This document shows positions 1-64,000 of a stretch of 64,000 nucleotides of DNA, piece by piece. The notes below the pieces were generated by a model. That model had not been told where the DNA came from, searched no databases, and saw only the letters and a list, made by a program, of their open reading frames with translations. The stretch's first letter is position 1. Each line of letters opens with the position of its first letter. The stretch is from Defluviicoccus sp. (GTDB taxonomy: Bacteria > Pseudomonadota > Alphaproteobacteria > MPNO01). The stretch lies in the NCBI GenBank assembly GCA_022823775.1, contig JAJEHI010000086.1:1309-65308 (forward strand), written 5' to 3'. The translations under genes were made by a program, and so were the position numbers.

Positions 1-237
1 GACCAGCCGTTCGGTCTCGGCGATCCCTTCTTCTTCGACATGGTGGGGGTGAATACCGACCGAGCAGTCGACCGCCCCGTGGTCCCGCGCCAGCGACCGC
101 ACGCGTTCGAACTCGGTCAGCTTCGTGCAGATGGTCACGACGCGGCCGACGCCCGCTTCACGCGCGCGTTGCAGGGCCTCGGCCCGATCCTCTTCGAACG
201 CGTCGAAATCGAGGTGGCAGTGGCTGTCGACCAGCAT
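1..237 (-). CDS. tatD: TatD-family metal-dependent hydrolase; N-terminal part, gene runs off window start
   Basis: Reverse-complement translation of 1..240 gives VMLVDSHCHLDFDAFEEDRAEALQRAREAGV..., the canonical TatD N-terminus (SHCHLD motif). The start overlaps the metG stop, as in the conserved metG-tatD arrangement. Confidence 0.7.
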   Translation of the reverse strand, partial: MLVDSHCHLDFDAFEEDRAEALQRAREAGVGRVVTICTKLTEFERVRSLARDHGAVDCSVGIHPHHVEEEGIAETERLV

Positions 238-8325: not shown

Positions 8326-9056
8326 CCGCCCCGCCCACCACGGACGAATTCCTCGCCTGCGTCCTCGCGCGCGCGATCGAGGGGCTCGGGAACGTCGCGG
8401 TCGGGACCAGCTCGCCGGTCGCGGCAACCGCGGCATTGCTGATCGAGGAAGAGAGCCAAGGCCGCACCCGTGCGAGCATCCTCGGCAGCCGGCGCTACAA
8501 CCCCTTCAACGACGGCGGCAGCGAGATCCACGACCGCGCCGCGCAAGGGCGGATCGACGCGTTCTTTCTCGGCGGCGGCCAGATCGACGGAGAAGGCAAC
8601 ATCAACCTGGTCGGGACCGGCTCATATCCGGCTGTAAATACCCGTTTTCCAGGAGGTTATGGGTCGGCTTTCCTGTATTTTCTCATTCCTCGCGTGATCC
8701 TGTTCAGGGAAGAGCACAGCCGCCGCGTATTGGTGCCGAAGGTCGATTTCGTGAGTGCACCGGGCACCAGCCCGCCCTCCGTCCATCGCACCGGCGGCCC
8801 CCACGCCCTGGTCACGAAGCTCTGCGTCATGGCCTTCGACCGGGACGCCGGGAGGTTCCGGCTGCAGAGCCTTCATCCCGGCGTGGAGTTGGAAGAGGTG
8901 AAAGAGGCGACCGGGTTCGATTTCGAGATACCGTCGGAAGTTCCCCGAACGCCCCCGCCCGGCCCCGCCAGGCTCGCCCTGATCCGCGGCGTCGTCCGCG
9001 AGCGCGTGGCCGAGACCTACCCCGAATTCGCGGCGACCCGCATCGCCGCCGGTTAG
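8322..9056 (+). CDS. CoA-transferase subunit B
   Basis: The in-frame tail of ORF 7647..9056 beginning VTAPPTTDEFLACVLARAIEGLGNVAVGTSSP... matches beta-subunit family (ENG/glutamate active-site region, NLVGTG). GTG start overlaps the subunit-A stop. Confidence 0.7.
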   Translation: MTAPPTTDEFLACVLARAIEGLGNVAVGTSSPVAATAALLIEEESQGRTRASILGSRRYNPFNDGGSEIHDRAAQGRIDAFFLGGGQIDGEGNINLVGTGSYPAVNTRFPGGYGSAFLYFLIPRVILFREEHSRRVLVPKVDFVSAPGTSPPSVHRTGGPHALVTKLCVMAFDRDAGRFRLQSLHPGVELEEVKEATGFDFEIPSEVPRTPPPGPARLALIRGVVRERVAETYPEFAATRIAAG

Positions 9057-9460
9057 GCGTCGGCCTCACCGATGTCGACCCGACCCGCGACGGCGGCCAA
9101 CGCCCGGTCGAAAGTCTTGATATCGCCGACACCCCGCCGCCGGCAACTCGCCAGATGGCAAAGATCGCGGGCGCCGAGGCCCGGATACAGGTCGCAAAGC
9201 TGACGCGCCAGCGTGACGTCTTCGTTTGTCAGCGGCCATACGTCGATTTCGCACCGTTCGATCAACTCGAGCGCGGCATCGAATGTCGCCACCCTCCCCG
9301 CTCCGAGATAGGCATGCGCGAGCTCCTGTGCGACTTCCGCCGAGGTGACGAGCCGGATGCGCTCGCGGATGCAGGCGGCGAGGAACGTCCGGGCCGGCTC
9401 GCGAAGCGGATGCGCCCGACCGACCGCGTACATGAACACGTTGGTGTCGACGAAGATCAT
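9053..9460 (-). CDS. vapC: PIN-domain toxin VapC
   Basis: MIFVDTNVFMY... PIN signature with conserved acidic residues. ATGA overlap with the upstream antitoxin gene. Confidence 0.8.
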   Translation of the reverse strand: MIFVDTNVFMYAVGRAHPLREPARTFLAACIRERIRLVTSAEVAQELAHAYLGAGRVATFDAALELIERCEIDVWPLTNEDVTLARQLCDLYPGLGARDLCHLASCRRRGVGDIKTFDRALAAVAGRVDIGEADA

Positions 9461-23604: not shown

Positions 23605-24816
23605 TCAGACAGTCCGCCGGCCGCGACCGCGGCCGCGGACCATGGTAAGCGCCACGACGAAGGCGACCGCCAGGATCGCGGCGCCGGCGATATAGGGCAT
23701 GTCGCGTCCCCAGGCGGCGAACAGCGCGCCGGCGGTTATCGGCCCCAGGATGCGCATCAGGCTCTGGACCGATTGCGTCACGCCGAGGATCGCGCCCTGC
23801 GACTCATCCGGCGAGGCGCGCGAGATCAGCGCGTTGAAGGCGGGTTGTCCGAGGCCGTAACCCAGCGTGATCGCGGCGCCCGACAGCGCGATCGCGGTCA
23901 CCGTGTCGGACAAGGGCAGCGTGCCGATGCCGACCGCCATCGCCAGGATCCCGTAGGCCGCCGTCCGCCTCTCGCCGCGCAACCTCACCACGACCCCGAC
24001 CAGCCCGCCCTGGACGATCACCAGCAGCACGCCGATATAGGCGAAGAAGAAGCCGGTCTCGCGCGGCCCCCAGCCCACCGCGCGCTCTGCCCAGATGGCG
24101 AAGGTGGATTCCAGCCCGCCCATGGCGAAGCCCATCATGGCGAAGCAGAGGATGGGGATGCCGACGGCCGGCATGGCGAGAACCTTGGCGAACCCGGCGA
24201 GCTGGGCGGGGACGCTGTAGCGCGGGCCGGACCGTCGACGGCGTTCCGGCTCCGGCAGAAACAGGAGCCCGAAAAGGACGCCCACGAACGACATCGCGGC
24301 GGCGGCGAGGAACGGCGTGCGGAAATCCGGGTTGGCCGGGTCCGGCCCGGCGAGAATGCCGCCGATCGCCGGGCCGAGCACGAAGCCGAGCCCGAAGGCG
24401 GCGCCGAACAGGCCGAGCCCCTTGGCCCGGTCCTCTTCCGGCGTCACATCGGCGATATAGGCTTGGCCGACCGCGATATTGGCGCCGAAGATGCCGCCCA
24501 TCGCGCGCGCCGCGAACAGCATCCAGAGCGCCTCGGCGAAGCCGAGCCAGAGGAAGGAGAGCACCGAGCCCATGAGGCTCAGGAGCAGGATGGGCTTCCG
24601 CCCCCACTTGTCGCTCGCCCAGCCCCACAAGAACGAGAATACGAACCCGAAGGCGGAGTAGGTCGCGAAGAGGAGCGTTACCGTCGCCGGCCCGGCGCCG
24701 AACCGCTCGGCCCAGAACGGGGTCAGCGGGATGATGATCCCGAACCCCACCATGTCCATGAATACGGTGATCAGGAGCGCCGTCAGCGCGCCCCCGCGGC
24801 GAAACCTGCCCCTCAT
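23605..24816 (-). CDS. MFS transporter (tetracycline-resistance-like/TCR family)
   Basis: 12 predicted TM segments, MFS motif A-like GRKPIL, and a D(K/R)xGR region. Confidence 0.8.
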   Translation of the reverse strand: MRGRFRRGGALTALLITVFMDMVGFGIIIPLTPFWAERFGAGPATVTLLFATYSAFGFVFSFLWGWASDKWGRKPILLLSLMGSVLSFLWLGFAEALWMLFAARAMGGIFGANIAVGQAYIADVTPEEDRAKGLGLFGAAFGLGFVLGPAIGGILAGPDPANPDFRTPFLAAAAMSFVGVLFGLLFLPEPERRRRSGPRYSVPAQLAGFAKVLAMPAVGIPILCFAMMGFAMGGLESTFAIWAERAVGWGPRETGFFFAYIGVLLVIVQGGLVGVVVRLRGERRTAAYGILAMAVGIGTLPLSDTVTAIALSGAAITLGYGLGQPAFNALISRASPDESQGAILGVTQSVQSLMRILGPITAGALFAAWGRDMPYIAGAAILAVAFVVALTMVRGRGRGRRTV

Positions 24817-24989
24817 CCGCGCATCGCGCGCTCAGCCATGGCGCCGTTCCGACAAACCGCGTTAGACGGTCGGGAGCATACACAGGACAGCCGCCGCCGC
24901 GTTGCGGGGCGGCCGTTATTGCCTATGATCCGACGAGCGGCGGACTATAGACATCGTTGTCGGACCGCGCGAGGGCCGGAGGAGCGGGA

Positions 24990-25205
24990 ATGGCGATACG
25001 GATCGAATACTGCGTGAGATGAAACTACGAGCCGCGCACCCTCCGTGCGAGGGACAGGCTCAAGGCACGCGGCGCCGGGGACGTCGAGATCGCTCCCGGG
25101 GCGACCGGCGCCTTCGAGATCGTCATCGACGGGCGGACCGCCTGGTCCAAGCTCGGGACCGGGCGCTTTCCCACCGACGAAGAGGTCGACGCGTTGCTCG
25201 GCTGA
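24990..25205 (+). CDS. SelW/Rdx-family selenoprotein (CxxU) with in-frame UGA selenocysteine codon
   Basis: ATG at 24990 preceded by GGAGGAGCGGG. Translation is MAIRIEYCVR-U-NYEPRTLRARDRLKARGAGDVEIAPGATGAFEIVIDGRTAWSKLGTGRFPTDEEVDALLG, with TGA at 25020-25022 exactly at the CxxU redox-motif position. It carries the downstream family hallmarks (PGxxGxFEI..DG, SKL, FP). A hairpin follows immediately 3' of the UGA. It was missed by the ORF track because of the internal TGA. Confidence 0.7.
25029..25061 (+). promoter_or_regulatory. Candidate bacterial SECIS hairpin downstream of the UGA
   Basis: gagcc-gcgca-ccctc-CGUGC-gaggg-aca-ggcuc: outer stem, inner stem, internal loop and a 5-nt apical loop containing GU. 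It begins 7 nt after the UGA. Confidence 0.4.
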
Positions 25206-25220
25206 CCGCCGGGAAACGCC

Positions 25221-26648
25221 TCAGTTGGTACGGGTCGGGGTCTCGAGGCTGGCCTCGGCGCGCGGCGCATCGAAGCTCCGGCGCGCCGGGCTCACGGGCT
25301 TCACCCCGTCTTCTCCGACCTCGACGATCGCGTAGCTGCGCTCCGACAGCCCGTCGGCGTGGAAGCGAAACAGCCCGGAGGCACCCTCGAAGCCGCGCGC
25401 GTCGCGCAGCGCCGGGACGCCGAAATCCGCCCCGGGACGCCGCCCGAGCAGCGCCGCGACCGCCGCCGCGTCATAGGCGAGCGCCGCGAGCGGGCCGGGC
25501 GGCTTGCCGAAGAATTCGGAGAAGCGCCGCTCGAACAGGCTGCCCAGCTCGGTGGCAGGGCTCGCGTACCACGCGCCCCTGAGCGCCGGCTCGTATCTCA
25601 GCTCGAGCCGGTCCCAGGTCGAAATGCCGAGCACGCGCACCCGATCGCTCGGAATGTCGTAATACGGCAAACGCGCCGCGATGGCGTAGACGGGGCTGCT
25701 GCCGGACGGCACCAGAATCGCGTCGAACCCGACATTTCCCAATGTGTCGCGATTCTTCAGCCGCTCCAGAATGGCGAGCGATTCGGGGTCCCCGCGCCGT
25801 TTCAGGGCGGTGCGGCGTTCGCTCAGCGCGGCCTTGCGGCCGTCGTAGCGGGCAAGCCGGCGAACCGCGCGGTCGATCGACGGCACGTCGTCGGTGTAAA
25901 CGGCGATCTCGTGCACCCTGATGCCGGCCTCCCGCGCCGCGGCGTCGGCGGCGACGGCGGCCTGGGCGCCGAACCTGCCGGTCGGGACCAGAACCGCCAG
26001 GCTGCGGATCCCGCGCCCGCCGGCATAGGCCAGGACCGCGCGGATCTGCGGCTCCAGATGATGACCGAGGATGAAGACGCCCCGCCCCGCCGCAGCCCGG
26101 TCGTTGGTGAACGCGACCACGTTGACGCCCGCGCGCTCGGCGACGGGCGCGACCGCCGCGACGGAGTCCGAGAACAGCGGGCCGAGCAGCAGCCTCGCGC
26201 CGTCCTTCAGCGCCGCCGCCGCCGCTTCCGCCGCGCCCGCCGGCGTTCCCGCCGTGTCGTAGGGCTTGAGCGCGAGGCCGGGAGCGGCGTGGTCGAACAC
26301 GGCCATCATGGCGCCGCTCAGCATCGCGCGACCGAGCTCGCGCTCGTCTCCCGACAGCGGCAGCAGGATTCCGACGACGACCGGTGCTTCGTCCGTGTCG
26401 GCGGAATCCCGGGTTTCGCCGGGCGCGGACGCCGGGCTTTCGGGCACCGGATCGGCCTTCGGGGCGGGCGGAAGCGCGGGAGCCTTCGCCACGGGCGGCG
26501 GGGCGGCCTCGACCCTCGGAGGCGGCGCTCCTGCCTCGGGCACGCATCCGCCGAGCGCGAGAAGGGCCGCCGCGATCGCGACGGCGCGCGCGAGCCGGCT
26601 TCCCAGCCGAGGAAAAATTGCGGAAAAATGTCGACCGCGGGAGTTCAT
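25221..26648 (-). CDS. LpoA/LppC-type periplasmic-binding-fold lipoprotein (penicillin-binding protein activator-like)
   Basis: Signal peptide plus lipobox (LALGGCV), a Pro/Ala-rich linker, then a type-1 periplasmic binding protein fold. 475 aa. Confidence 0.55.
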   Translation of the reverse strand: MNSRGRHFSAIFPRLGSRLARAVAIAAALLALGGCVPEAGAPPPRVEAAPPPVAKAPALPPAPKADPVPESPASAPGETRDSADTDEAPVVVGILLPLSGDERELGRAMLSGAMMAVFDHAAPGLALKPYDTAGTPAGAAEAAAAALKDGARLLLGPLFSDSVAAVAPVAERAGVNVVAFTNDRAAAGRGVFILGHHLEPQIRAVLAYAGGRGIRSLAVLVPTGRFGAQAAVAADAAAREAGIRVHEIAVYTDDVPSIDRAVRRLARYDGRKAALSERRTALKRRGDPESLAILERLKNRDTLGNVGFDAILVPSGSSPVYAIAARLPYYDIPSDRVRVLGISTWDRLELRYEPALRGAWYASPATELGSLFERRFSEFFGKPPGPLAALAYDAAAVAALLGRRPGADFGVPALRDARGFEGASGLFRFHADGLSERSYAIVEVGEDGVKPVSPARRSFDAPRAEASLETPTRTN

Positions 26649-26941: not shown

Positions 26942-27415
26942 CTAATCGAGCGCGTTGCGGAGGCGGGCTCCGATCCGTTCGAGCTCTTCCACGAGCTCCG
27001 CCAGCGCGGCTCTCAGCGCCTCGACTTCGGACGCATCGGCGGCCGGGGCGGCGGGGACCGGTTCGGGCCGGGCCCGCGGCTCCGGAACTTCCGGCCGGGC
27101 CCGGCTGTTCTGGCGCTCGGCGAGCGCCTTCACGCCGCCCTCGCGCAGCAGCTTCTGAACGCCCTTGATGGTATAGCCGTCGGTATAGAGCAGCTCGCGG
27201 ATCGATCTCAGAAGGTCGATGTCCTCCGGGCGGTAGTAGCGCCGCCCGCCGCCGCGCTTCATCGGCTTTACCTGGATGAACTTGCTCTCCCAGAAACGCA
27301 GCACGTGCTGCGGCACGTCGAGTTCGTTCGCCACCTCGCTGATGGTGCGGAAAGCGGACGCCGACTTCGCCGACCCGCGGCGCCTCGCTTCGACCGGCCG
27401 TAGCGCCTCCGCCAT
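26942..27415 (-). CDS. MerR-family transcriptional regulator
   Basis: HTH region ([22 protein letters not shown]) with a coiled-coil C-terminus. Conserved position downstream of ihfA in alphaproteobacteria. Confidence 0.8.
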
Positions 27416-27418
27416 GAC

Positions 27419-27754
27419 TCAGTCGCCGGGCTCGTCCGGGCCGCCCGGCCGCGCGGCCGCCATCGATTGGTTGATTCTCGACTTGAGCACGTTGGAAGCG
27501 CGGAAGACCAGCACCTTGCGGGGCAGGATCGGGACCTCTTCGCCGGTCTTGGGATTGCGCCCCACCCTGGCGCCCTTCTGGCGGACCGAGAAGCTGCCGA
27601 ACGAGGAAATCTTGACCGATTCGCCGCGGGCCAGCGAATCCGAGACCTCGCGGAGCACGGTTTCCACCAGATCGGCCGATTCGTTGCGCGACAGCCCGAT
27701 TTCCCGATACACCGCCTCGGCCAGATGCGCGCGCGTCACCGTCGCTGACGCCAT
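27419..27754 (-). CDS. ihfA: Integration host factor subunit alpha
   Basis: [11 protein letters not shown]...[26 protein letters not shown], a bacterial DNA-binding HU/IHF fold. Confidence 0.9.
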
Positions 27755-53462: not shown

Positions 53463-53741
53463 ATGATACGAAAGTTCCGGAGTCGGGCACTGCGTCGGTT
53501 CATGGAGCGAGGCGACGAGCGGCGCGTCCACCCGGAGCACCGCGACACCGTGCGCGACATCCTGGTGCGTCTCAACGCGTGTGCGAACCCGGACGATATG
53601 GACTTGCCCGGCTTTCGGCTGCACCGCCTCAGGGGCGAGTATGCCGGATTTTGGGCGGTGACGGTCGGCGCCAACTGGCGGGTGATCTTCCGATTCGAGG
53701 ACGGCCACGCCACCGATGTCGACTATGTGGGCTACCACTAG
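53463..53741 (+). CDS. higB: HigB-type (RelE/ParE superfamily) toxin
   Basis: 92-aa product. [39 protein letters not shown]... matches the 'plasmid maintenance system killer' family. Immediately followed by higA. Confidence 0.75.
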
Positions 53742-53754
53742 GAAGGCAACGTTC

Positions 53755-54042
53755 ATGCTTATGCACGATCCGCCCCACCCCGGCGCCTTCATTCGGCGTC
53801 AATGCCTCCAACCCCTCGGGCTGACGGTCACCGACGCCGCGAAGGGGCTGGCGGTTTCGCGCAACACGCTCTCTCTGTTACTCAACGGCCACATTGGCAT
53901 ATCGCCCGAAATGGCGATCCGGCTCTCCGAAGCATTCGGCGGCAGCCCGGAAAGCTGGCTGACCCAGCAGATGCAGTACGATCTCTGGCACACGCGGCAC
54001 AACCGCGAGGCAGTCGAAATCCGCAAGTTCGCCGCTGCCTGA
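53755..54042 (+). CDS. higA: HigA-type HTH (XRE-family) antitoxin
   Basis: [78 protein letters not shown], the canonical HigA sequence. AGGAAGG RBS 8 nt upstream. Confidence 0.8.
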
Positions 54043-61596: not shown

Positions 61597-61708
61597 GAAT
61601 TGTTGTGATGGTGGGTATCACTTAGGGTCATGTCGTGGCTATGCCCGAAGTTACGGGGCGCCATGTCGTTTTTCCATACACCTGTCCCATCGACAAGGAG
61701 ACGAACCG

Positions 61709-62008
61709 ATGACCAAGAGCCCAGTGTTTCTCGCGGCCGCGCTTCTGGCCGCCGCCAATTTCGCCGCCTCCGACGCGGCTCAAGCGGCCGACAAGCAGGA
61801 GAAGTGCTACGGCGTCTCGCTCGCCGGCAAGAACGACTGCAAGGCGGGTCCGGGAACGAGTTGCCAGGGCAGCTCGACCGTGGACTACCAGGGGAATGCC
61901 TGGAAGCTGGTCCCCGCCGGATCGTGCGAGGGTATGTCCTTCAAGACCAAGGACGGCCGGACGGTGTCAGGCAGCCTGAAGGAGCTGAAGCGCGACATTC
62001 CGAGCTGA
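61709..62008 (+). CDS. bufA: DUF2282-family secreted Cys-containing peptide (bufferin-type RiPP precursor, BufA-like)
   Basis: 99-aa product with a Sec signal peptide ([26 protein letters not shown]). The core has four Cys in the conserved spacing ([46 protein letters not shown]). AAGGAG RBS. Confidence 0.75.
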
Positions 62009-62063
62009 TCGGATAACGTCCGGGACGCCGTCCGGGCCTTCGACCCGGCGGCGACCGGACGAT

Positions 62064-62957
62064 TTGTCGACGAATCCGGCAATGCCGGCACTTTATCCTT
62101 TCACGCCGTTTACCTCGCGGATGCCCGCGCGGGCCGGCGTCGGGTTCAAGGGCGAGCATGCGGAGACGGTCTGCGGGGACCGACCGGACGTCGGCTGGTT
62201 CGAGGTCCATCCGGAAAACTACATGGTTGCCGGCGGGCCGAGGCTCGCGGTGCTCGAGGAGCTGCGCGGCAATTACCCGCTGTCGCTGCACGGCGTAGGC
62301 CTGTCGCTCGGCGGTGCCGAACGACTCGACTCCGACCATTTGAGAGCCTTCCGCGAGCTGGCGGACCGCTTCGAGCCGGGGCTGATTTCCGAACACATCG
62401 CCTGGTCCGCGCATGGCGGGATGTGGTTCGCGGACCTGCTCCCTCCGAGCCTTAGCCGGGCCGGCCTCGACCGCATTTGCGACAATATCGACGAGACGCA
62501 GGAAGCGCTCGGCCGTGCGATCCTGATCGAGAACCCGGCCAACTACCTCGTCTTGCCGGACCGCGACATGGACGAGGTCGCTTTCATCGTCGAAACGGCG
62601 AGGCGGACCGGTTGCGGCCTGCTGGTCGACGTCAACAACATCTACGTCAGTGCCGAAAATGTCGGCATCGACGCGGACGCCTATATCGATGCCGTCCCTG
62701 CCGACCTCATCGGGGAAATCCATCTTGCCGGCTTCACGGTCGACGAGCACGCCGGCGAGCGTCTGCTGATCGACAGCCACGGCGCGGCGGTCGACGCCGC
62801 GGTCTGGCGGCTCTACGACAGGCTGATCGCGCGAGTCGGGCCGCGCCCGACACTGGTCGAGTGGGACAAGGACATTCCCGACTGGGACGTGCTGCATGCC
62901 GAAGCGGTCGAGGCGGAGAGCCGCCTGGCCCGCCTTGCCGAGCCGGTGCCGGCATGA
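62064..62957 (+). CDS. bufB: DUF692-family multinuclear non-heme iron oxidase (MNIO, BufB-like) RiPP maturase
   Basis: 297-aa TIM-barrel-type DUF692 product (VGFKGEH...HPENYM...HGVGLSLGG...ISEHIAWS...LIEN). Immediately downstream of the DUF2282 precursor. Confidence 0.8.
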   Translation: MSTNPAMPALYPFTPFTSRMPARAGVGFKGEHAETVCGDRPDVGWFEVHPENYMVAGGPRLAVLEELRGNYPLSLHGVGLSLGGAERLDSDHLRAFRELADRFEPGLISEHIAWSAHGGMWFADLLPPSLSRAGLDRICDNIDETQEALGRAILIENPANYLVLPDRDMDEVAFIVETARRTGCGLLVDVNNIYVSAENVGIDADAYIDAVPADLIGEIHLAGFTVDEHAGERLLIDSHGAAVDAAVWRLYDRLIARVGPRPTLVEWDKDIPDWDVLHAEAVEAESRLARLAEPVPA

Positions 62958-62970
62958 GGAGGCGCCTGGG

Positions 62971-63750
62971 ATGAGCGCGCCTCTGGCTGCCCGGCAGGCG
63001 GATTTCGCCGCGGCCCTGAGAGACCCCTCGCCGGATGCGGTGCCGGACGGTTTCTCCGAAGCCGCCGCCCGGCGTTTCCGCGTATACCGCAACAATGTGC
63101 GCGTCGCGCTGATAGAGGCGCTTGCAGCCGCCTACCCGGCGGTGTCGAGGCTGGTCGGAGAGCCCTTCTTCCACCGCATGGCCGGCGTCTACGCGGCGGA
63201 GGAACCCTCGCGCGAGCGCACGCTCAATCTCTACGGCGAAAACTTCGCGGATTTCGTCGCCGGCTTCGCTCCGGCTGGCGAGTTGCCCTATCTCGCCGAC
63301 ATCGCCCGGCTCGAACGCGCGGTGCTCGAAGCGCGCCATGCGGCCGATGCCCCGGTGCTGGACCCGGCCGCGGCGGCCGCTCTCGGTTCCAGGCTCGCTT
63401 CCGCGTGGCTGATACCGCACCCGGCGACCCGGCTGGTGCGCTCCGAATATCCGGTTGCCGAGATCTGGCACGCCAACACGGCCGAGGCGCCGACGCCGGA
63501 CGACCTGGTCCTGACCGCGGGAGCTGCCGGCGCGCTGGTGTCGCGGCCCGCGCTGTCCGTTTCGGTGCAAGCTCTGGCGCCGGGCCGATGCGCATTCGCG
63601 GAAACCCTGCTGGACGGCGGCGATCCGGCCGCCGCGCATGCGGCCGCGGCCTCGCGTGAAGAAGATTTCGACGTTATACCGGCATTCAGGGACCTGCTTG
63701 CCGCGGGCGCCTTCGCGGGCGTCGCGAACGAACCGGGCGAAGGAGGGTAG
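62971..63750 (+). CDS. bufC: DUF2063-family MNIO partner protein (BufC-like)
   Basis: Start at MSAPLAARQADFAAALRD, which has a GAGGAGG RBS. DUF2063 N-terminal domain pattern (FRVYRNNVRVALIEALAAAYP). Overlaps the bufB stop region. Confidence 0.7.
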   Translation: MSAPLAARQADFAAALRDPSPDAVPDGFSEAAARRFRVYRNNVRVALIEALAAAYPAVSRLVGEPFFHRMAGVYAAEEPSRERTLNLYGENFADFVAGFAPAGELPYLADIARLERAVLEARHAADAPVLDPAAAAALGSRLASAWLIPHPATRLVRSEYPVAEIWHANTAEAPTPDDLVLTAGAAGALVSRPALSVSVQALAPGRCAFAETLLDGGDPAAAHAAAASREEDFDVIPAFRDLLAAGAFAGVANEPGEGG

Positions 63751-63752
63751 CG

Positions 63753-64000
63753 ATGGGTGGCCTGTCGAACATGGTGCGGCAACTGGTCGATCTCGGCCAC
63801 CGTATCGCGGAGCCCGTGACGGGCGGGCTGGGGCCGGTCGCGCTGCTCGCGCTACGGCTGCCCGTCGCCATCGTCTTCTGGCGCTCCGGCCGCGCCAAGG
63901 TGGAGGGGTGGAACATCTTTTCCGTCGGCGACTCGCAGTATTTCCTGTTCCGCGAGGAGTTCGGCATGCCGATGCCGGAACTGACCGCGCATGTGACCGC
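63753..64000 (+). CDS. bufD: DoxX-family membrane protein (BufD-like), 3' end beyond the window
   Basis: ATG with an AGGAGGG RBS. The N-terminus MGGLSNMVRQLVDLGHRIAEPVTGGLGPVALLALRLPVAIVFWRSGRAKV is typical of DoxX. Truncated by the window end. Confidence 0.6.
   Translation, partial: MGGLSNMVRQLVDLGHRIAEPVTGGLGPVALLALRLPVAIVFWRSGRAKVEGWNIFSVGDSQYFLFREEFGMPMPELTAHVT

What the first reader, a model, noticed from the sequence alone, without database searches (positions are those of the whole stretch)
24990..25205. Unannotated SelW/Rdx-family selenoprotein gene with in-frame UGA (CxxU) and downstream hairpin
The ORF track skips this locus because the frame contains TGA at 25020-25022.
Reading through it gives a 71-aa protein that has every hallmark of the SelW/Rdx thioredoxin-like family. 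The TGA falls exactly at the second redox position of the CxxC/CxxU motif (IEYCVR-U-NY).
A good SD (GGAGGAGCGGG) precedes the ATG at 24990. A two-tiered hairpin (25029-25061) starts 7 nt after the UGA, where a bacterial SECIS element is expected.
This implies the organism decodes UGA as selenocysteine. No selA, selB, selD or tRNA-Sec genes are present in this window.
Basis: partly seen in the sequence, partly recalled or inferred. Interest (0 to 1): 0.75.

Follow-up and report, generated by a model that had tools for sequence, protein, structure and literature searches.

The report
Unannotated SelW-like selenoprotein gene with SECIS
A small redox-protein gene that gene callers miss because it uses a UGA "stop" codon to encode selenocysteine; the call is correct, but the gene belongs to a bacterial selenoprotein family known since about 2005, so it is an annotation gap, not a new kind of system.

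Summary
Window 24990-25205 (+) encodes a 71-aa protein with in-frame TGA at 25020-25022. Read through, it matches Pfam Rdx (58.5 bits, cutoff 22.6) and NCBIfam CXXU_selWTH. The TGA aligns with the second Cys of the CxxC motif in solved relatives.

The TGA is conserved in 15 distinct Defluviicoccus-clade sequences and in 119 of 120 distinct Rdx ORFs recovered with a TGA/TGC/TGT-neutral pattern. TGA is also the commonest ordinary stop here (29/48 genes).

- It is 95.7% paired across 83 diverse sequences, with compensatory changes at all five pairs.
- G+26/U+27 are near-invariant, although that codon encodes Ser, Arg or Gly.

The lower tier (25029-33/25057-61) is not conserved family-wide.

No selA/B/C/D lies in the window or within 10 kb of it. 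The rest of the genome could not be searched. In other lineages, including alphaproteobacterial relatives, the same gene type lies beside selD or a fuller sel set (selC-selD-selA-selB in L037).

Verdict: a genuine but ordinary SelW-like selenoprotein, a new member of a known kind.

The parts
24902..24929 (+). Promoter-like conserved block: TTGCGG (24902-07), 16-nt spacer, TATGAT (24924-29). Inferred promoter of the gene.
   Evidence: Conserved in 13 species while the flanks diverge; TATGATCCG is invariant. The consensus scanner did not flag it, because the -35 hexamer matches only 3/6.
24942..24952 (+). Conserved GGACTATAGAC motif between the putative -10 box and the SD. Role unknown (5' UTR or operator).
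   Evidence: GCGGACT is invariant and the following A, T, A nearly invariant (>=90%) in the 13-species alignment.
24978..24983 (+). Shine-Dalgarno GGAGGA, 6 nt before the ATG.
   Evidence: Sequence. A purine-rich GGAG/GGGAG is kept at this distance in orthologues.
24990..25205 (+). SelW-like (Rdx family) selenoprotein CDS, 71 aa: MAIRIEYCVR-U-NYEPRTLRARDRL...DALLG.
   Evidence: Pfam Rdx 58.5 bits. TIGR02174 56.9 bits. Orthologue model pLDDT 96.6 with Rdx fold. Conserved in 11 species genomes.
25011..25013 (+). Cys8 codon (TGC), first residue of the CxxU redox motif.
   Evidence: Invariant in 15/15 clade sequences. Aligns with the first Cys of CxxC in PDB relatives.
25020..25022 (+). In-frame TGA, the selenocysteine codon (residue 11).
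   Evidence: TGA in 15/15 clade sequences. TGA in 135/136 pattern matches, 119/120 after filtering to distinct Rdx ORFs, with TGA/TGC/TGT all allowed. Aligns with the second Cys of CxxC.
25039..25053 (+). SECIS core: 5-bp stem CCCUC/GAGGG (25039-43 / 25049-53) capped by loop CGUGC (25044-48), with G25045 and U25046 at +26/+27 from the U of UGA.
   Evidence: 95.7% of cells paired, with compensatory changes at all 5 pairs. For the 6-pair version (19-24/30-35): covariation 0.563 against 0.06-0.18 for slid controls, 0/500 shuffles as high. G26 in 116/118 and U27 in 115/118. Zero synonymous variation in codons 17-22 within the clade.
25029..25061 (+). The outer tier GAGCC/GGCUC (25029-33 / 25057-61) is lineage-specific.
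   Evidence: MFE structure in the window and clade. The outer tier is paired in only 50.1% of cells family-wide.
25203..25205 (+). Terminal TGA stop of the same gene, so UGA is read two ways within one mRNA.
   Evidence: TGA is the stop of 29/48 window genes.

Best explanation
Window 24990-25205 is a monocistronic gene for a 71-residue SelW-like (Rdx family) thioredoxin-fold protein. Its redox centre is Cys8-x-x-Sec11.

The UGA at 25020-22 is recoded as selenocysteine. A SECIS hairpin lies inside the coding sequence: stem 25039-43 / 25049-53, loop CGUGC, with G and U at +26/+27 from the UGA. By analogy with characterised bacterial SECIS elements, this hairpin would be bound by SelB-GTP-Sec-tRNA(Sec) while the ribosome sits on the UGA (inferred). 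The gene's second UGA, at 25203-05, has no such hairpin and terminates translation.

The mature protein is inferred to cycle between a selenolate/thiol form and a Cys8-Sec11 selenenylsulfide form, acting as a small thiol-dependent oxidoreductase. Its physiological substrate is unknown, as it is for the whole family.

Shown here: family membership, fold, position of the UGA in the motif, conservation of the UGA, purifying selection on both sides of it, and covariation-supported SECIS geometry.

Inferred: actual Sec insertion, presence of selA/B/C/D elsewhere in this genome, and the redox chemistry.
For: - Family and fold: Pfam Rdx 58.5 bits against a 22.6 cutoff. TIGR02174 CXXU_selWTH 56.9 against 34.2. 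PDB sequence hits are all Rdx proteins, with C8/U11 aligned on their CxxC. The AlphaFold model of orthologue P0001 (83% identical) has pLDDT 96.6 and topology b1-CxxU-a1-b2-b3-b4-a2. Its top 23 PDB fold hits are all SelW-related proteins, TM 0.66-0.89.
- UGA conservation: TGA at codon 11 in 15 distinct clade sequences. All changes in codons 1-8 are synonymous and codons 9-10 vary VR/RV. A metagenome pattern neutral to TGA/TGC/TGT returned 135 TGA and 1 TGC among raw matches, and 119 TGA and 1 TGC among 120 distinct Rdx ORFs.
- No code reassignment: TGA is the normal stop of 29/48 window genes and of this gene itself.
- SECIS: the codon at +25..27 is NGU in 114/118 sequences but encodes Ser (48), Arg (33) or Gly (33). 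The upper stem is 95.7% paired with compensatory changes at all 5 pairs. For the 6-pair version, covariation is 0.563 against at most 0.18 for slid controls, with 0/500 shuffles reaching it. Rare Arg codons CGT and AGG (6.7% and 7.0% of Arg codons) are invariant in the stem-loop. Synonymous diversity is 0.099 in codons 12-24 against 0.242 in codons 25-71 (p = 0.023).
- Link to Sec machinery in relatives: 16 of 101 metagenome contigs with this gene type have sel genes adjacent (selD in all 16; selA and/or selB as well on 9 of them). tRNA-Sec is also adjacent on 6 of the 32 metagenome contigs scanned. Examples are L037 and L035, whose sel genes all score above their equivalog cutoffs. Two alphaproteobacterial-type relatives with the same CGUGC loop have it too: L054, and L152 where the gene sits with selD, tRNA-Sec, selB and selA.
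- Not an error: independent assemblies of the same population (99.2-99.9% identical) carry the same TGA.
Against: - No selA, selB, selC or selD lies in the window or within 10 kb either side. The rest of the genome could not be searched, so the Sec-decoding trait of this particular organism is inferred, not shown.
- The hairpin's free energy is not better than shuffled controls.
- No Rfam family matches.
- An alternative local hairpin (pairs 14-19 with 25-30, loop CCCUC) has similar energy in most clade members.
- The two closest Cys-form homologues also keep the hairpin. So the hairpin's presence alone does not prove current Sec insertion.
- There is no experimental evidence of selenium incorporation.
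Confidence: 0.93

Rival explanations
1. Pseudogene or sequencing/assembly error. The TGA is a recent nonsense mutation or a miscalled base in a Cys-type Rdx gene.
For: Gene callers skip or truncate the ORF. No Sec machinery is in the window.
Against: TGA is present in 15 distinct clade sequences from 11 species-level genomes and several metagenomes, with only synonymous change in codons 1-8 and a full-length frame downstream. Independent assemblies of the same population carry it. 119 of 120 distinct family ORFs found with a TGA/TGC/TGT-neutral pattern have TGA.
Confidence: 0.01
2. UGA is read through as a standard amino acid. This could be Trp, as JGI and other pipelines translated it, Cys by a near-cognate tRNA, or a reassigned code (table 4/25), rather than Sec.
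For: Public protein sets show 'W' at this site in 67 of 150 family representatives. Sec machinery was not found in the held DNA of this organism.
Against: The 'W' is a TGA at the DNA level wherever checked: P0001, P0006 and P0009. TGA terminates 29/48 genes in the window and this gene itself, so there is no reassignment. The conserved SECIS-type hairpin with G/U at a fixed distance is the hallmark of SelB-dependent recoding. Members of the same subfamily sit next to tRNA-Sec, selD, selA and selB. The position is the redox Cys of CxxC, where Trp would abolish function.
Confidence: 0.03
3. The real gene is only the downstream ORF, as called in P0002 and P0003 (46-47 aa). It would start after the TGA and give an N-terminally truncated Rdx fragment. 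The upstream part would be untranslated leader.
For: Automated callers produce exactly this. 35 of 150 family representatives are such truncated calls.
Against: The truncated product lacks strand b1, the CxxU motif and most of helix a1 of a confidently predicted compact fold. Codons 1-10 are under purifying selection in frame with the rest. A conserved SD and ATG precede codon 1. The internal start positions are not conserved between P0002 and P0003.
Confidence: 0.02

Closest known systems
Bacterial SelW-like selenoproteins (Pfam PF10262 Rdx; NCBIfam TIGR02174 CXXU_selWTH), as described in the Sargasso Sea and bacterial selenoproteome surveys (PMC1088965, PMC1794560)
   Same: Small (~70-80 aa) thioredoxin-like protein. 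N-terminal CxxU with Sec encoded by UGA. SECIS hairpin immediately downstream inside the ORF, with a conserved G in a small apical loop. Few Cys homologues. Function unknown but presumed redox. The HMM, fold and motif position all match.
   Different: Nothing categorical. The host is a Defluviicoccus-clade alphaproteobacterium, whereas the 2006 survey listed FdhA as the only alphaproteobacterial selenoprotein family (PMC1794560). This lineage adds an outer helix to the SECIS and is not linked to sel genes.
Escherichia coli fdhF SECIS (SelB-binding hairpin with loop GGUC, G23/U24 and bulged U17; from established knowledge, not re-derived here)
   Same: Hairpin directly 3' of the UGA within the ORF. 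Apical loop presenting a G-U dinucleotide at a fixed distance. Some family members even have the loop GGUC(U), such as L016.
   Different: The G-U lies at +26/+27, one codon further than in fdhF, in most family members. L025 has it at +23/+24. The window's loop is CGUGC, and there is no bulged U in the 5-bp upper stem.
Cys-type Rdx proteins with solved structures: Agrobacterium Atu0228 (2FA8), Bordetella BPP (2OJL), Vibrio (2P0G), human MIEN1 (2LJK), mouse SelW (2NPB)
   Same: Same fold (TM 0.66-0.89, rmsd 1.2-3.3 A), with the redox motif in the same place.
   Different: These bacterial structures are CxxC forms, about 25-29% identical. Distant Cys forms lack the G26/U27 hairpin signature (L017, L144). 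Mammalian SelW uses a 3'-UTR eukaryotic SECIS (PMC1088965).

Membership tests
Rdx / SelW-like family (PF10262; TIGR02174) | Sequence match to the family profile above the curated cutoff | tested here: met
   PF10262 scores 58.5 bits (cutoff 22.6), covering residues 3-68 of 71. TIGR02174 scores 56.9 bits (cutoff 34.2).
Rdx / SelW-like family (PF10262; TIGR02174) | CxxC/CxxU redox motif near the N-terminus, between strand b1 and helix a1 | tested here: met
   C8-V-R-U11. It aligns on YCEPCGF (MIEN1) and YCTQCNW (Atu0228). The profile scores 7 bits more with C than with X at residue 11. In the model, b1 is residues 2-7 and a1 is 14-26.
Rdx / SelW-like family (PF10262; TIGR02174) | Thioredoxin-like b1-a1-b2-b3-b4-a2 fold | tested here: met
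   Tested on orthologue P0001 (83% identical): pLDDT 96.6. The top 23 PDB hits are all SelW-related structures.
NCBIfam NF041051 SelTWH_Campy (equivalog) | Score above the equivalog cutoff (88 bits) | tested here: not met
   69.6 bits, below 88. It is not a member of this specific equivalog, only of the broader subfamily.
Bacterial selenoprotein gene (Sec-UGA) | In-frame UGA conserved among orthologues, with coding conservation on both sides | tested here: met
   15/15 distinct clade sequences have it. Changes upstream are synonymous only and the downstream frame is intact. 119/120 distinct family ORFs carry TGA.
Bacterial selenoprotein gene (Sec-UGA) | Homologues with Cys aligned to the UGA | tested here: met
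   27 CxxC representatives. TGT/TGC confirmed at the DNA level in L148, L149, L144 and L017. PDB CxxC relatives align the same way.
Bacterial selenoprotein gene (Sec-UGA) | Bacterial SECIS: a hairpin just 3' of the UGA, with a small apical loop carrying a conserved G (or GU) roughly 16-37 nt from the UGA | tested here: met
   Loop at +25..29 with G26 in 116/118 and U27 in 115/118. Stem 95.7% paired with compensatory changes at 5/5 pairs. Shuffle and slide controls were passed on the 6-pair version of the stem. No dedicated bSECIS predictor or Rfam model was available.
Bacterial selenoprotein gene (Sec-UGA) | selA, selB, selC (tRNA-Sec) and selD present in the same genome | not testable with these tools
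   Absent from the window +-10 kb. The machinery is adjacent to the same gene type in other lineages.
Bacterial selenoprotein gene (Sec-UGA) | Selenium actually incorporated (75Se labelling or MS of the Sec peptide) | not testable with these tools
   Experimental.

The most novel reading that the evidence does not exclude
SelW-like CxxU proteins may be functionally part of the selenium-utilisation pathway itself, for example as a redox or carrier partner that handles selenide or selenenylsulfide for SelD, rather than generic oxidoreductases.

The basis is repeated physical linkage. The gene sits directly next to selD, alone or with selC, selA and selB, in several protein sub-lineages:
- L035/L037 type, transcribed ahead of tRNA-Sec, selD, selA and selB
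- L032/L103 type
- L117/L121 type
- L054 and L152, alphaproteobacterial type, divergent from selD

The alternative, which I think more likely, is that the linkage only reflects co-transfer of the Sec trait with a client selenoprotein. That is what was proposed for fdhA with selA-selB-selC (PMC1794560).
Probability: 0.15. Interest if true: 0.6.

Novelty: new member of a known kind. Interest (0 to 1): 0.28.

Why it matters
For the genome, this adds a real and conserved gene that automated annotation misses in every member of the Defluviicoccus clade examined. It also implies that these wastewater and soil alphaproteobacteria have the selenocysteine-decoding trait.

For databases, it shows a systematic artefact. 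67 of 150 family representatives carry 'W' at the Sec site, and all three checked at the DNA level were TGA. A further 35 are N-terminally truncated.

For SECIS biology, the family gives a clean example of an RNA signal overriding protein coding. The NGU codon at +25..27 is kept although it encodes Ser, Arg or Gly.

None of this changes what is known about selenoproteins in principle.

Tried and rejected
- Rfam, at gathering and at permissive thresholds, gave no SECIS hit. Bacterial SECIS elements are not usefully modelled there, so this is uninformative.
- Single-sequence folding energy against shuffles was not significant. I replaced it with comparative analysis.
I replaced them with a degenerate DNA pattern.
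I used P0001 instead.
- The single-sequence AlphaFold model was poor (pLDDT 63). I redid it with an alignment.
- A scan of the window for other read-through TGA genes, which would have been independent evidence of Sec use, gave only two trivial hits.
- The Cys-form negative control for the hairpin was only partly informative. Distant Cys forms lack G26/U27, but the two closest keep the hairpin.
- Tracing Sec machinery to the window's own genome failed. I ran a SelD search seeded from L054, a cluster look-up that returned no accessions and one context look-up. These produced a sel locus (L152) from a different organism, 64.9% GC with only weak DNA similarity to the window.
- A literature search for Defluviicoccus plus selenocysteine gave nothing relevant.
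- I rejected the alternative hairpin (14-19 / 25-30, loop CCCUC) as the functional element. It would bury G26/U27 in a stem, and it is weakened in the window itself by A at +19.

Full report
**1. Observation**

- The ATG is at 24990, preceded by GGAGGA (24978-83) with a 6-nt spacer.
- TGC (Cys8) is at 25011-13, and the in-frame TGA at 25020-22.
- The frame stays open to a terminal TGA at 25203-05.

Read through, the product is 71 aa: MAIRIEYCVR-U-NYEPRTLRARDRLKARGAGDVEIAPGATGAFEIVIDGRTAWSKLGTGRFPTDEEVDALLG.

The gene stands alone. An MFS transporter gene (23605-24816) lies divergent on the minus strand. An LppC/Peripla_BP_6 lipoprotein gene (25221-26648) converges on it from the minus strand.

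Public assemblies of the same organism leave a ~400-nt uncalled gap here. In relatives, callers report only a 46-47-aa C-terminal fragment.

**2. Protein family**

- With Cys substituted for Sec, the protein scores 58.5 bits against Pfam Rdx PF10262 (cutoff 22.6). With X at that site it scores 51.4, so the profile specifically expects Cys there.
- NCBIfam TIGR02174 (CXXU_selWTH) scores 56.9 against a cutoff of 34.2. The narrower equivalog NF041051 is not reached (69.6 < 88).
- Sequence search of the PDB finds only Rdx proteins among the significant hits: MIEN1 2LJK, Agrobacterium Atu0228 2FA8, mouse SelW 2NPB and others. C8 and U11 align on their CxxC.
- An AlphaFold model of orthologue P0001 (83% identical), built with a 60-sequence alignment, has pLDDT 96.6. 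Its topology is b1(2-7), CxxU loop, a1(14-26), b2, b3, b4, a2.
- The top 23 PDB fold matches of that model are all SelW-related structures, with TM 0.66-0.89.

Membership in the Rdx/SelW-like family is therefore established by sequence, motif and fold.

**3. Is the TGA real and translated?**

*Conservation in the clade.* A scan of one genome per GTDB species returned 11 Defluviicoccus or 'Alphaproteobacteria bacterium' MAGs and a Planctomycetota MAG. Together with metagenome contigs this gives 15 distinct clade DNA sequences.
- All have TGA at codon 11.
- Codons 1-8 differ only synonymously (ATA/ATT, CGG/CGC, ATC/ATA).
- Codons 9-10 swap between VR and RV.
- The downstream frame is intact in all.

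*Independent assemblies.* The window is 99.9% identical to ENA ERZ23491513 scaffold_143 and 98.4% identical to NCBI GCA_022822845.1. Independent assemblies of this population carry the same TGA. Sequencing error and pseudogene are therefore excluded.

*Genetic code.* TGA is the commonest ordinary stop in the window (29 of 48 GC3-supported genes). It also terminates this gene itself (14 of the 15 clade genes end in TGA and one in TAG), so the code is not reassigned.

*Wider family.* An exhaustive profile-free search with P0001 found 154 representatives. At the Sec column, 67 show 'W', 27 show C, and 35 are N-terminally truncated. Wherever I checked the DNA, the 'W' was a TGA mistranslated by the source pipeline: P0001, P0006 and P0009.

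- Among raw matches in all held loci, 135 of 136 carry TGA.
- After filtering to distinct Rdx ORFs, 119 of 120 carry TGA.

**4. The SECIS**

In this 67% GC context it is no more stable than shuffles (z = +0.62), and Rfam has no matching model. I therefore tested it comparatively.

*The loop.* I anchored 118 distinct Sec-form sequences on the U of UGA (position 1; window coordinate = 25019 + p).
- The codon at +25..27 is NGU in 114 of 118 sequences, yet it encodes Ser (AGU, 48), Arg (CGU, 33) or Gly (GGU, 33).
- G26 is present in 116/118 and U27 in 115/118.

So an RNA-level constraint overrides the amino acid.

*The upper stem.* Positions 20-24 pair with 30-34. In the window these are 25039-43 CCCUC and 25049-53 GAGGG, with loop 25044-48 CGUGC.
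- On an 83-sequence alignment, 95.7% of cells are paired and all five pairs show compensatory changes. For example, pair 23-31 is CG 37, UA 23, UG 14, AU 6, GC 2.
- For the six-pair version (19-24/30-35), the covariation score is 0.563, against 0.06-0.18 when the 3' partners are slid by 1-3 columns. None of 500 shuffles reaches it.

It is a lineage-specific extension at best.

*Within the clade.*
- The stem-loop codons CTC CGT GCG AGG are invariant, although CGT and AGG make up only 6.7% and 7.0% of Arg codons here.
- Synonymous diversity is 0.099 in codons 12-24 against 0.242 in codons 25-71 (permutation p = 0.023). It is zero in codons 17-22.

*Competing fold.* A hairpin pairing 14-19 with 25-30 has similar energy in most clade members, but it would bury G26/U27 in a stem. 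It is weakened in the window by A at +19.

*Comparison with E. coli.* From established knowledge, the E. coli fdhF SECIS has loop GGUC with G23/U24. Here the G-U sits one codon further 3'. Some family members carry the loop GGUC(U) (L016) or the +23/+24 spacing (L025).

**5. Sec machinery**

- The only tRNAs are tRNA-Pro(GGG) and tRNA-Ser(UGA).
- Pfam context of the window plus 10 kb each side shows no SelA or SelB domains.
- The AIRS-fold gene after nusB is ThiL. TIGR01379 scores 306.8, while selD scores 48.7 against a cutoff of 125.
- tblastn with genuine SelD, SelA and SelB finds nothing in the window or in the clade flanks.

An attempt to trace a clade SelD through a protein search and one context look-up reached a different organism. 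This remains the one untested defining feature.

*In other lineages.* Circumstantial support is strong.
- tRNA-Sec lies ~300 nt downstream of the SelW-like gene in 6 of the 32 metagenome contigs scanned.
- In L037 the gene order is SelW-like, tRNA-Sec, selD, selA, selB. The sel genes score 343, 486 and 344 bits, all above their equivalog cutoffs. L035 has the same sel genes in the same order on the minus strand.
- 16 of 101 metagenome contigs with this gene type have sel genes adjacent, always including selD.
- L054 shares the window's exact NYEPRALRARDRL segment, with a CGUGC loop in a compensated CUCUC/GAGAG stem. It has an alphaproteobacterial-type selD divergently adjacent.
- L152 has an uncalled SelW-like gene with TGA and stem-loop GCUCUC[CGUGC]GAGAGC next to selD, tRNA-Sec, selB and selA.

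**6. Mechanism**

*Shown:* a conserved, translated ORF of the Rdx fold with UGA at the second redox position, and a covariation-supported hairpin presenting G-U 23-24 nt after the UGA.

*Inferred from the established bacterial pathway:*
- SelD makes selenophosphate.
- SelA converts Ser-tRNA(Sec) to Sec-tRNA(Sec).
- SelB-GTP-Sec-tRNA(Sec) binds the hairpin loop and delivers Sec to the UGA at 25020.
- The terminal UGA at 25203 lacks a hairpin and is read by release factor 2.

The protein is inferred to act through a Cys8-Sec11 selenenylsulfide/selenol couple. Its substrate is unknown, as for the whole family (PMC1088965).

*Expression signals (inferred):* a block conserved in 13 species carries TTGCGG-16-TATGAT (24902-29) and GGACTATAGAC (24942-52) upstream of the SD.

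**7. Comparison with what is known, and novelty**

- SelW-like CxxU proteins were the most abundant selenoprotein family in the Sargasso Sea data (48 genes). They have bacterial SECIS elements and no known function (PMC1088965).
- They have few Cys homologues, which suggests that Sec is ancestral (PMC1794560).
- NCBI maintains a dedicated model for the family (TIGR02174).

The finding is therefore a correct detection of a new member of a known kind. The modest additions are these:
- The host clade. In the 2006 survey, alphaproteobacterial genomes had only FdhA as a selenoprotein family (PMC1794560).
- The fixed-register NGU codon.
- The scale of 'W' and truncation artefacts in public protein sets.
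- The recurrent adjacency to sel genes.

**8. Verdict**

My confidence that this is a Sec-encoding SelW-like gene with a functional SECIS is 0.93. Interest is low to moderate (0.28), because the family and the mechanism are well known.

Noticed in passing
L037:4572-9513 (+); L035:7279-12261 (-); also L041, L070, L102, L103, L134; L152:9696-14484: In several lineages the SelW-like Sec gene sits next to the Sec-decoding genes. In L037 the order is SelW-like, tRNA-Sec, selD, selA, selB. In L152 and L054 it is divergent from selD. 16 of 101 metagenome contigs with this gene type have sel genes adjacent. This could reflect co-transfer of the trait with a client selenoprotein, or a functional tie to selenium metabolism.
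   Followed up: partly
L148:137-355; L149:501-734: The closest Cys-form homologues (TGT at the redox codon) still carry the SECIS-like hairpin. L148 has CUCUC[CGUGC]GAGAG with 5/5 pairs, and L149 has loop GGUCU with 4/5 pairs. These look like fossil SECIS elements after recent Sec-to-Cys replacement. Distant Cys forms (L017, L144) lack G26/U27. With n = 4 this is anecdotal.
   Followed up: partly
Public protein sets (P0001, P0006, P0009 and 64 more of the 150 representatives listed): 67 of 150 family representatives carry 'W' at the Sec position and 35 are N-terminally truncated. All three 'W' cases checked at the DNA level are TGA. This is a systematic mistranslation of Sec as Trp in metagenome gene calls.
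   Followed up: partly
window 24894-24953: A ~60-nt block upstream of the gene is conserved across 13 species while the flanks diverge. It reads GCGTTGCGGGG...TTGCC-TATGATCCG...GCGGACTATAGAC. It looks like a promoter (TTGCGG-16-TATGAT) followed by a conserved GGACTATAG element of unknown role, and may also serve the divergent MFS gene.
   Followed up: partly
window ~61708-64000 (+): A bufferin-type RiPP-like cluster: BufA1 (PF10048) precursor, MbnB_TglH_ChrH (PF05114), HvfC_N (PF09836) and DoxX. It is seen through the Pfam context of the near-identical contig L024.
   Followed up: no
window ~53502-54042 (+): A HigB-like toxin and HTH_3 antitoxin pair, from the Pfam context of L024. A PIN-domain gene also lies at ~9053-9460 (-).
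   Followed up: no
L152:8040-9665 (+) and L152:6370-6924: Next to selD in L152, a UGSC-family (PF24696) protein is called as two adjacent ORFs (96 aa and 433 aa), with a DsbA-like gene nearby. The split probably marks another in-frame Sec-UGA that the gene caller broke.
   Followed up: no
L037:5211-6206; L035:10658-11626: The SelD ORFs start at profile positions 16 and 34, so they are N-terminally cut. The N-terminal active-site residue may itself be encoded by an in-frame TGA (Sec-type SelD).
   Followed up: no
window 26942-27754 (-): The IHF/HU-like gene (27419-27754) and the MerR-family gene (26942-27415) are in the same frame, separated only by a TGA and one codon. My read-through scan flagged this, but it looks like two ordinary adjacent genes, called separately in all assemblies.
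   Followed up: yes
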